Assembly (NCBI RefSeq): GCF_002854065.1
Contig: NZ_CP024147.1
Source: Escherichia coli
GTDB lineage: Bacteria; Pseudomonadota; Gammaproteobacteria; Enterobacterales; Enterobacteriaceae
DNA: 64,000 nucleotides
Strand: one strand, 5' to 3'
The translations under genes and the position numbers were made by a program. The first letter of the stretch is position 1, and every line of letters begins with the position of its first letter. Below the pieces are notes generated by a model. That model was given only the letters and a program-made list of their open reading frames with translations, was not told the origin of the DNA and did no database searches. Positions 10,262-10,847 of the stretch are shown in pieces.

Positions 10262-10654
10262 GTGTCAGACACACTCCCCGACGACAATCACGACCGCCCC
10301 TGGTGGGGGCTGCCCTGCACAGTGACGCCCTGTTTCGGGGCACGTCTGGTGCAGGAGGGTAACCGGTTGCATTACCTTGCCGACCGCGCCGGTATCAGAG
10401 GCCGGTTCAGCGATGCGGATGCATACCATCTGGACCAGGCCTTTCCACTGCTGATGAAACAACTGGAACTCATGCTCACCAGCGGTGAACTGAATCCCCG
10501 CCATCAGCATACCATCACGCTGTATGCAAAAGGGCTGACCTGTGAAGCTGATACTCTCGGCAGTTGTAGTTTCGTTTATATGGCTGTTTATGCTACCCGA
10601 TTCTCAAATCAATTACCGAAAGCTTCTGTTCATCAACTAACTCATTACTTTTAA
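10262..10654 (+). CDS. CbeA/YeeU-family type IV antitoxin homolog with a replaced C-terminal tail; no toxin gene follows
   Basis: MSDTLPDDNHDRPWWGLPCTVTPCFGARLVQEGNRLHYLADRAGIRGRFSDADAYHLDQAFPLLMKQLELMLTSGELNPRHQHTITLYAKGLTCEADTLGSC... matches the antitoxin family to about residue 115, then reads into unrelated sequence. Confidence 0.7.
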   Translation: MSDTLPDDNHDRPWWGLPCTVTPCFGARLVQEGNRLHYLADRAGIRGRFSDADAYHLDQAFPLLMKQLELMLTSGELNPRHQHTITLYAKGLTCEADTLGSCSFVYMAVYATRFSNQLPKASVHQLTHYF

Positions 10655-10847
10655 TGATGGGGCCCTTTCTGGGGCCCAAGAAATTAACAACGCTAACAAA
10701 CAACATAAATAACAATAAATTAAATAAAAAATTTCATTCCTGCAGGGGACCATCCTTGTGTTTATCCCTAAAACCACATAAAAACCGTAAATTAAATTCG
10801 AACTAGCAGGCCGAATAAGGCACACCAGGAACTCGTGGTTTTATTCA

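What the first reader, a model, noticed from the sequence alone, without database searches (positions are those of the whole stretch)
10262..10847. Orphan CbeA-like antitoxin with replaced C-terminus and no CbtA toxin gene
The antitoxin homolog is conserved through ...GLTCEADTLGSC.FVY.AVY, then its last few codons are replaced by unrelated sequence (...ATRFSNQLPKASVHQLTHYF). The roughly 190 bp that follow, up to the dsdC stop, are AT-rich non-coding DNA with a GGGGCCC...GGGGCCC palindrome and no toxin ORF. Either a deletion removed the cytoskeleton-targeting toxin and left the antitoxin (which could still neutralise paralogous toxins elsewhere), or this marks the island-chromosome junction.
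Basis: partly seen in the sequence, partly recalled or inferred. Interest (0 to 1): 0.45.

Follow-up and report, generated by a model that had tools for sequence, protein, structure and literature searches.

The report
Toxin-less antitoxin gene at island end
This is the worn right-hand end of a mobile island inserted at the argW tRNA site, where an old deletion removed the toxin gene and left a complete but toxin-less CbeA/YeeU antitoxin gene with a junk tail; about 5% of sequenced E. coli carry the same arrangement, so it is ordinary.

Summary
ORF 10262-10654 (130 aa) is a YeeU/CbeA-family antitoxin whose native last codons are replaced by a 20-aa tail. No CbtA or YeeW remnant lies downstream or anywhere in the 64-kb window.

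Homology to K-12 cbeA stops at 10591. A 144-bp AT-rich island arm follows (10592-10735) and carries the GGGGCCC hairpin. The true island-chromosome junction is a 17/19-bp copy of the argW 3' end (attR, 10736-10752), followed by 95 bp of core DNA and then dsdC.

This antitoxin-tail-arm-attR module is single-copy in 270 of 5,426 complete E. coli genomes. RefSeq names it "YeeU family antitoxin" (WP_001389100.1). It also exists as alleles about 80% identical with the same layout, so the deletion is old, not strain-specific.

The whole Pfam domain survives (100 of 101 positions). Indels shift the tail's reading frame between alleles, so the tail is read-through, not a selected sequence.

The protein could still act in trans: published work shows cross-neutralisation among the paralogs, and dN/dS here is 0.2-0.35. 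But it is inactivated in 4 of 12 sampled genomes. K-12 already has a named orphan of this family, YagB. Low interest.

The parts
9362..9412 (+). 3' end of the antirestriction (KlcA-like) gene. This is the left limit of the surviving CP4-44-like island segment in this window.
   Evidence: Megablast colinearity with the intact island of E. coli CFSAN061762 (L001) begins at window 9362 and runs to 10900 at 98.65%. L001 annotates an antirestriction protein here.
9413..9904 (+). yeeS-like RadC/JAB-domain gene
   Evidence: NCBIfam TIGR00608 RadC, 142 bits against a cutoff of 133.85. Annotated as a JAB domain protein at the same place in related genomes.
9967..10188 (+). yeeT-like DUF987 gene
   Evidence: ORF of 73 aa. 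Annotated as a DUF987 protein at the same place in related genomes.
10262..10654 (+). Orphan YeeU/CbeA-family antitoxin gene (130 aa). Conserved domain to 10591, read-through tail 10592-10651, stop codon 10652-10654. A 15-nt in-frame deletion lies after 10276.
   Evidence: Pfam PF06154, model 1-100/101, E 1.4e-52. Matches PDB 2INW and 2H28 at E about 1e-71. 92% identical to K-12 cbeA up to 10591. Identical to WP_001389100.1 apart from the missing PGTTL.
10592..10735 (.). Island right arm: AT-rich DNA fused to the truncated antitoxin gene. Its first 60 nt are translated as the tail.
   Evidence: No similarity to K-12 cbeA-cbtA or to the K-12 dsdC flank. Single copy, always next to a YeeU gene, in 270 of 5,426 genomes. 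Conserved at about 80% in diverged alleles. Stays with the island while the right flank changes.
10659..10677 (.). GGGGCCC-TTTCT-GGGGCCC hairpin with a 6-7 bp G/C stem. No T-run follows on either strand.
   Evidence: Fold of 10640-10700 gives -18.1 kcal/mol, z = -3.8. The consensus scan does not call it a terminator. The arms are kept and the loop varies in the L005 and L006 alleles.
10736..10752 (.). attR: direct repeat of the argW tRNA 3' end (ATTCCTGCAGGGGAC[AC]CA). This copy lacks the AC dinucleotide.
   Evidence: K-12 argW ends ...GATTCCTGCAGGGGACACCA. K-12 pawZ and all five comparison loci that were read here carry the full repeat. K-12 homology resumes at 10740.
10753..10847 (.). Chromosomal core spacer between attR and the dsdC stop codon
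   Evidence: 98% identical to the K-12 pawZ-dsdC interval.
10848..11783 (-). dsdC, the LysR-type regulator of the D-serine locus, followed by dsdX (12001-13338) and dsdA (13356-14684)
   Evidence: ORF list. Annotation at the same place in K-12 and other genomes.

Best explanation
Window 9362-10752 is the right-hand remnant of a CP4-44-like (P4-integrase-type) genomic island integrated at tRNA-argW, next to dsdCXA.

In an ancestor of this island lineage, a deletion or illegitimate recombination joined the antitoxin gene to the last roughly 150 bp of the island. The join lies about 4 codons before the native stop, after ...VYPTPAAP. The event removed the native stop, the spacer, the cbtA toxin gene and everything else up to the terminal arm. 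Translation now runs into arm DNA until a chance TAA, which produces a tail that is not conserved.

The allele in this window carries three later small deletions: 12 nt (PTPA) at the fusion point, 15 nt (PGTTL) near the N-terminus, and 2 nt in attR.

The complete CbeA fold is still encoded. If the gene is transcribed, the product most likely still acts as type IV antitoxins of this family do, by stabilising FtsZ/MreB polymers rather than by binding a toxin. It could therefore buffer CbtA, YkfI or YpjF paralogs encoded elsewhere.

Shown here: the anatomy, the junctions, the absence of a toxin, and the population distribution. Inferred: the order of events. Inferred at roughly 50%: retained activity. 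The gene is dispensable and decays in some lineages.
For: Anatomy: the breakpoints against K-12 lie at 10591/10592 and 10740, and the attR repeat of argW follows the arm. G+C drops from 56.7% to 33% exactly at the fusion point. No CbtA or YeeW remnant exists in the window.

One module, many contexts: the arm is single-copy and always follows a YeeU gene in 270 of 5,426 complete genomes. About 80 of them have the dsdC flank. Others have DUF4942'-cscB, an intS prophage or IS1203 to the right.

Age: alleles about 80% identical (L005, L006) keep the order antitoxin end, tail, hairpin, AT-rich arm, attR.

Fusion point: the L005 allele shares VYPTPAAP with Shigella flexneri YeeU (PDB 2INW) and diverges after it.

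Tail not selected as protein: a 5-nt indel shifts the frame after SNQ in L005, and L006 stops early.

Domain intact: Pfam model 1-100/101. The last beta-strand is present and the tail has pLDDT below 50, though the model overall is of low confidence. Natural family C-termini are variable.

Possible function: dN/dS is 0.21 between two orphan alleles (dS 0.47) and 0.35 against K-12 cbeA. Eight of 12 sampled genomes have an intact ORF, and an identical protein, WP_001389100.1, occurs in six unrelated strains. The paralogous antitoxins CbeA, YafW and YfjZ neutralise each other's toxins (PMC5371832). CbeA is reported to act on FtsZ/MreB rather than on the toxin (PMC5624674).
Against: No island carrying the same arm together with a toxin gene was found. 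The right-hand breakpoint and the size of the deletion are therefore inferred, not seen.

The dN/dS values may reflect recombination with paired paralogs rather than selection on the orphan. The region is mosaic: 91% identity in yeeS-yeeT, 82% in cbeA plus arm, and 71% in DUF932 between L005 and L001.

The gene is inactivated in 4 of 12 sampled genomes: an internal stop in L002 and L016, a frameshift in L006, and IS1 in L007.

In this window the operon is cut off upstream at 9362 by a BrxL fragment and IS elements. No promoter-like site was found on the + strand in 9100-11100, so expression is uncertain.
Confidence: 0.8

Rival explanations
1. Dead remnant. The gene is a non-functional leftover of island decay, kept only because it has not yet been erased. 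It does nothing in this genome.
For: Independent inactivations occur in related genomes: an internal stop (L002, L016), a frameshift (L006) and an IS1 replacement (L007). This window's copy has extra deletions and an IS-truncated upstream region with no + strand promoter-like site. Its attR is damaged. Orphan antitoxins are very abundant in E. coli and are often attributed to gene loss (PMC10790755).
Against: The full Pfam domain and the reading frame are intact here. All three small deletions are in frame or lie outside the gene. dN/dS is 0.21-0.35. An identical 135-aa protein is kept in strains with different right-flank contexts.
Confidence: 0.4
2. Normal allelic variant. This island lineage never carried a toxin, and the long tail is simply the native C-terminus.
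For: The allele is common and RefSeq annotates it as an ordinary YeeU-family antitoxin. Family C-termini are naturally variable.
Against: The yeeT-cbeA DNA is 92-100% identical to CP4-44, where cbtA follows. Composition changes sharply at the fusion point. The tail's frame and stop differ between alleles although the DNA is about 80% conserved. The L005 allele follows a native paralog's C-terminus up to PTPAAP and then diverges.
Confidence: 0.07
3. The cbeA breakpoint is itself the island-chromosome junction, so the 193 bp downstream are core chromosome.
For: The breakpoint lies near dsdC, and the downstream DNA is AT-rich and non-coding.
Against: K-12 core homology starts only at 10740, at the argW-derived repeat. 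The 144-bp arm travels with the antitoxin gene into genomes where the right flank is csc, an intS prophage or an IS.
Confidence: 0.02

Closest known systems
CbeA (YeeU)/CbtA (YeeV) type IV toxin-antitoxin module of cryptic prophage CP4-44, E. coli K-12
   Same: The upstream context is the same (yeeS RadC/JAB, yeeT DUF987). The spacer and GTG start are identical. The antitoxin gene is 92% identical in DNA up to codon 115, with the same Pfam domain and the same solved fold family.
   Different: There is no cbtA and no yeeW. The last 7 codons are replaced by a 20-codon read-through tail. Five codons (PGTTL) are missing near the N-terminus. The gene abuts the island's attR instead of being followed by further island genes.
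YagB, the orphan antitoxin of cryptic prophage CP4-6 in E. coli K-12
   Same: It is a YeeU-family homolog with no neighbouring CbtA-like toxin, and its 3' end is altered by a rearrangement. RefSeq names it 'orphan antitoxin YagB', and Wen et al. 2017 suggested it might be an orphan antitoxin.
   Different: YagB is only 53-54% identical to this protein. It sits inside CP4-6 next to ISX/IS30/IS1 remnants, and its truncation is IS-associated rather than a fusion to an island arm beside attR.
WP_001389100.1, the 'type IV toxin-antitoxin system YeeU family antitoxin' at the argW island end in other E. coli
   Same: It is the same allele: identical sequence, tail, arm and attR, at the same chromosomal place.
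   Different: The window's copy lacks five codons (PGTTL) and two bases of attR. The exact 130-aa product is not on record in the protein collection.
The variable argW-dsdCXA/csc region of E. coli
   Same: The location is the same, and argW is described as a hotspot for recombination at which the csc sucrose operon was inserted in place of dsdCX (PMC4366372, which cites Moritz & Welch 2006 and Jahreis et al. 2002). The tandem stacking of elements seen here fits that picture.
   Different: Those papers deal with D-serine and sucrose genes. I could not read Moritz & Welch 2006, so I do not know whether this antitoxin remnant is described there.

Membership tests
YeeU/CbeA antitoxin family (Pfam PF06154) | Significant full-length match to the CbeA_antitoxin profile | tested here: met
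   PF06154, E 1.4e-52, residues 13-112, model positions 1-100 of 101.
YeeU/CbeA antitoxin family (Pfam PF06154) | YeeU fold as in PDB 2H28, 2INW and 2EA9 | tested here: met
   Matches 2INW and 2H28 at E about 1e-71 over residues 3-116. The AF2 secondary structure beta-beta-alpha-beta-beta-beta covers 25-111, but the model is of low confidence at mean pLDDT 57.
YeeU/CbeA antitoxin family (Pfam PF06154) | Neutralises CbtA-family toxicity and enhances FtsZ/MreB bundling | not testable with these tools
   Known for CbeA, YafW and YfjZ from the literature (PMC5371832; PMC5624674). Not known for this allele.
Complete type IV CbtA/CbeA toxin-antitoxin module | CbtA-family toxin gene immediately downstream of the antitoxin gene | tested here: not met
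   tblastn with CbtA against the whole window gives a best E of 0.98. BLASTN with K-12 cbtA and its downstream DNA finds nothing. Only 193 bp separate the stop codon from dsdC.
Complete type IV CbtA/CbeA toxin-antitoxin module | Island context yeeS (RadC/JAB), yeeT (DUF987), then antitoxin | tested here: met
   ORFs at 9413-9904 and 9967-10188. The order is the same as in CP4-44.
Orphan YeeU-family antitoxin (YagB-like) | YeeU homolog without an adjacent toxin, with its 3' end altered by a rearrangement | tested here: met
tRNA-integrated (P4-integrase-type) genomic island terminus | Direct repeat of the tRNA 3' end (attR) bounding island-specific DNA | tested here: met
   17 of 19 bases of ATTCCTGCAGGGGACACCA at 10736-10752. 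The full 19-bp repeat is present in related genomes. Core homology begins there.
tRNA-integrated (P4-integrase-type) genomic island terminus | argW with attL and a cognate integrase at the other end | tested here: not met
   There is no tRNA-Arg in the window. The island is interrupted at 9362 by a BrxL fragment and IS elements. The left end may lie outside the window. A related genome annotates an integrase gene in the island.
Intrinsic terminator (for the GGGGCCC hairpin) | G+C-rich stem followed by a T-run | tested here: not met
   The stem is stable, but no T-run follows on either strand and the consensus scan does not report it.

The most novel reading that the evidence does not exclude
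The toxin-less antitoxin-tail-arm-attR end is not mere debris. It would be a stable, selected island architecture in which a stand-alone CbeA-type protein protects the cytoskeleton in trans, as an anti-addiction or general FtsZ/MreB-stabilising factor against CbtA-family toxins of incoming or resident islands. The conserved hairpin-bearing arm, which evolves more slowly than synonymous sites (JC 0.17 against dS 0.47), would then be a functional att arm or regulatory element.
Probability: 0.2. Interest if true: 0.35.

Novelty: already known. Interest (0 to 1): 0.1.

Why it matters
It matters little beyond annotation. The case shows that a gene labelled "YeeU family antitoxin" beside dsdC is in fact a toxin-less, tail-fused orphan at the attR end of an argW island, present in about 5% of complete E. 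coli genomes. It gives exact junction coordinates, which are useful for island boundary calling and for TA-system censuses that count orphans. If the orphan were shown to neutralise paralogous CbtA-type toxins, it would be one more example of trans-protection (anti-addiction) by a type IV antitoxin. The principle is already established experimentally for its K-12 paralogs.

Tried and rejected
- **RNA families.** An Rfam gathering-threshold scan of 1-20000 found nothing. A permissive scan of 10400-10950 gave only a chance CrcZ match at 14.6 bits against a gathering score of 95. No known RNA family lies in the arm.
- **Terminator reading of the hairpin.** Rejected: no T-run follows the stem and the scan does not call it.
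- **Small ORFs in the arm.** The candidates are 10654-10806 (+, 50 aa), 10637-10825 (-, 62 aa) and 10593-10715 (-, 40 aa). Rejected as genes: they cross attR into flanks that differ between genomes, or they are broken by the indels of the L005 and L006 alleles.
- **Origin of the arm.** It has no similarity to K-12 CP4-44 downstream DNA or to the CPS-53 torI-pawZ end. It has no match in the phage collection. Its only plasmid match is a 1.4-Mb record listed as a plasmid, which by its size I take to be chromosomal. A 20-base degenerate pattern covering the hairpin and AATTAAC found nothing in the 100,044 species-representative genomes or in IMG/VR. The parental toxin-bearing structure was therefore not found.
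- **NCBIfam.** No model matches the antitoxin or YeeT.
- **Exact-sequence look-up of the 130-aa product.** Not on record.
- **Moritz & Welch 2006** could not be read.
- **Left end of the island in L001's genome.** I looked for attL/argW there, but the island is larger and interrupted by IS1, so I did not pursue it.

Full report
**1. What is in the sequence**

The window carries dsdC (minus strand, stop codon at 10848), dsdX and dsdA. Upstream on the plus strand lie a RadC/JAB gene (9413-9904), a 73-aa DUF987 gene (9967-10188) and a 130-aa ORF (10262-10654) that starts with GTG.

The 130-aa product matches Pfam PF06154 (CbeA_antitoxin) over model positions 1-100 of 101, E 1.4e-52. It also matches the solved YeeU structures 2INW and 2H28 at E about 1e-71.

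BLASTN against K-12 CP4-44 shows 92% identity from the yeeT-cbeA spacer to window 10591. The only gap is a 15-nt in-frame deletion that removes PGTTL. The similarity stops exactly after GCTGTTTAT (...AVY).

K-12 CbeA ends PTPEMKN. The window ORF continues ATRFSNQLPKASVHQLTHYF and stops at 10652-10654. The 193 bp up to dsdC have 37.8% G+C, against 56.7% in the conserved coding part. They contain the GGGGCCC-TTTCT-GGGGCCC hairpin at 10659-10677.

tblastn with K-12 CbtA and YeeW, and BLASTN with K-12 cbtA and its downstream DNA, find nothing anywhere in the 64 kb.

**2. Where the junctions really are**

Similarity to the K-12 chromosome resumes at window 10740. That point is the start of pawZ, the 15-bp argW remnant that marks attR of prophage CPS-53 in K-12. 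From there it runs at 98% into dsdC.

Read against the K-12 argW gene, the island-side repeat is 19 bp, ATTCCTGCAGGGGACACCA. It is complete in five comparison loci. In the window it lacks the AC dinucleotide and occupies 10736-10752.

The region therefore has three parts:
- antitoxin gene homologous to cbeA, up to 10591;
- 144 bp of other DNA, 10592-10735, whose first 60 nt are read as the tail;
- attR, then 95 bp of core DNA, then dsdC.

The cbeA breakpoint is not the island-chromosome junction.

**3. The arrangement is common and old**

The 148-bp stretch 10592-10739 occurs once per genome in 270 of 5,426 complete E. coli genomes. Of these, 241 match at 99% identity or more and 29 at about 80%. 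In all but one of the 40 listed matches it lies under a gene annotated "YeeU family antitoxin". About 80 genomes have the same dsdC flank as the window.

To the right of attR the context varies:
- dsdC (L001, L002, L016);
- a DUF4942 fragment followed by cscB (L005-L007, L012, L015; cscB also in L010 and L013, where no fragment is annotated);
- an intS prophage integrase (L014);
- IS1203 (L011).

The order antitoxin end, tail, arm, attR stays the same throughout. The arm therefore belongs to the island. The locus behaves as the known argW integration hotspot, with elements stacked in tandem (PMC4366372).

The diverged alleles L005 and L006 keep the same order, including the hairpin arms and the att repeat, at 78-82% identity. 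The fusion thus predates their divergence or has spread as a unit.

RefSeq annotates the common 135-aa product as WP_001389100.1. The window protein equals it apart from the five missing codons. The exact 130-aa sequence is not on record, and the best full-length DNA matches are 97.5% because of the 15-nt and 2-nt gaps.

**4. Where the fusion occurred, and what the tail is**

The L005 allele reads ...VYPTPAAPRLSNQISNRKLRLIN. It shares VYPTPAAP with the Shigella flexneri YeeU of PDB 2INW (...VYPTPAAPAT...) and diverges after that. The ancestral fusion therefore lies only about four codons before a native stop. The window/L001 allele has lost a further 12 nt (PTPA) at this point.

Between alleles the tail DNA is about 80% conserved. 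A 5-nt indel shifts the frame after SNQ in L005, and L006 stops early. The tail is therefore read-through of non-coding arm DNA, not a selected peptide.

Natural members of the family have variable C-termini after AVYPT, such as PEMKN, LAPATTS and PETESNPPE. YfjZ ends almost at that point. An AlphaFold model (mean pLDDT 57, so weak evidence) gives the expected beta-beta-alpha-beta-beta-beta core through residue 111, with pLDDT below 50 for residues 114-130.

**5. Origin**

A deletion is the economical explanation. The spacer upstream of the gene is identical to CP4-44, and the gene itself is 92% identical. In CP4-44, cbtA follows 88 bp after cbeA (PMC5371832). Composition also switches abruptly at the fusion point.

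I could not find the parental structure. The arm never occurs apart from the truncated antitoxin in E. coli complete genomes. It is absent from phages, from plasmids (apart from one 1.4-Mb record that by its size is probably chromosomal), from species-representative genomes and from IMG/VR. The right-hand breakpoint is therefore inferred.

**6. Does it do anything?**

In favour of retained capacity:
- The complete domain is encoded.
- Nei-Gojobori dN/dS is 0.21 between the two orphan alleles L001 and L005 (dS 0.47), and 0.35 against K-12 cbeA.
- Eight of 12 sampled genomes have an intact ORF, and six unrelated strains with different right flanks carry an identical protein.
- CbeA, YafW and YfjZ each neutralise all three K-12 toxins (PMC5371832).
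- CbeA is reported to work by stabilising FtsZ/MreB assemblies rather than by binding the toxin, and to protect against other FtsZ inhibitors as well (PMC5624674).

Against:
- Independent inactivations occur: an internal stop in L002 and L016, a frameshift in L006, and IS1 in L007.
- The region is mosaic, with 91%, 82% and 71% identity in adjacent segments, so dN/dS may reflect recombination with paired paralogs.
- In this window the operon is cut at 9362 by a BrxL fragment and IS911/IS30, and no promoter-like site appears on the + strand.

I put retained activity at about one half.

**7. The arm and the hairpin**

The arm diverges less (JC 0.17-0.24) than synonymous sites in the adjoining gene (0.47). 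The hairpin arms are kept while the loop varies. This fits a recombination arm with integrase, Xis or IHF sites, but nothing here tests that.

The hairpin is not a canonical terminator, because no T-run follows it. No Rfam family matches.

**8. Comparison with what is known**

This is a member of the YeeU/CbeA family by profile and by near-identity to solved structures. It is not a complete type IV TA module, because the defining adjacent toxin was tested for and is absent.

The closest described analogue is K-12 YagB, named "orphan antitoxin YagB" in RefSeq and discussed as such by Wen et al. 2017. Orphan antitoxins are abundant in E. coli: 73,201 occurrences in 950 genomes (PMC10790755). The allele itself is already annotated in hundreds of genomes.

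**9. Verdict**

The feature is real, correctly spotted, and ordinary. It is the decayed attR end of an argW island with a toxin-less antitoxin gene. Novelty: already known. Interest: about 0.1.

Noticed in passing
window 9240-9364: A C-terminal fragment of a Lon-related BREX protease (BrxL; TIGR02653 positions 594-625 of 675, E 1.7e-6) is joined at about 9362-9364 to the 3' end of the island's antirestriction gene. E. coli 23CRST031 (L007) has the same fragment downstream of IS30/IS911, annotated as an S16 serine protease pseudogene.
   Followed up: partly
window 5418-9207: A cluster of insertion sequences: IS2-like orfA/orfB (5418-6691), and an IS911-like element whose orfA (from 6822) is split from its orfB (8368-9207) by an intact IS30 (transposase 7141-8292). 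Window 7053-9364 is 99.7% identical to L007. This IS density, and the absence of any full-length match above 97.5% to the finding's region (10200-10900) in 5,426 complete E. coli genomes, suggest a Shigella-like or unsampled lineage.
   Followed up: partly
window 961-4458: A 1,165-aa AIDA-I/ECSE_1600-type autotransporter ORF. It has an autotransporter beta-barrel domain at E 1.6e-96 but falls below every curated equivalog cutoff. It is probably cargo of the same or a neighbouring island.
   Followed up: no
window 10750/10751 (attR): The attR repeat lacks the AC dinucleotide that is present in K-12 pawZ and in all five comparison loci read here. Together with the missing left part of the island, this probably immobilises the remnant.
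   Followed up: partly
window 10276/10277: A 15-nt in-frame deletion (PGTTL) lies between short repeats (CACTCCCCG / CACTTCCCG). The same five-codon gap occurs in a different YeeU paralog cluster (P0022), which suggests recurrent slippage.
   Followed up: partly
L014 (E. coli S1-NGR-02-A) 1564-2919; L005-L007 4150-4600: In other genomes the same attR is followed directly by an intS prophage integrase, or by a DUF4942 gene fragment and then cscB. So several elements are stacked in tandem at argW, and the att site between them serves as attR of one and attL of the next.
   Followed up: partly
window 10592-10735 versus L005/L006: The non-coding arm diverges less (JC 0.17-0.24) than synonymous sites of the adjacent antitoxin gene (dS 0.47). 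This could reflect constraint on att-arm protein-binding sites or a different recombination history. It remains unexplained.
   Followed up: no
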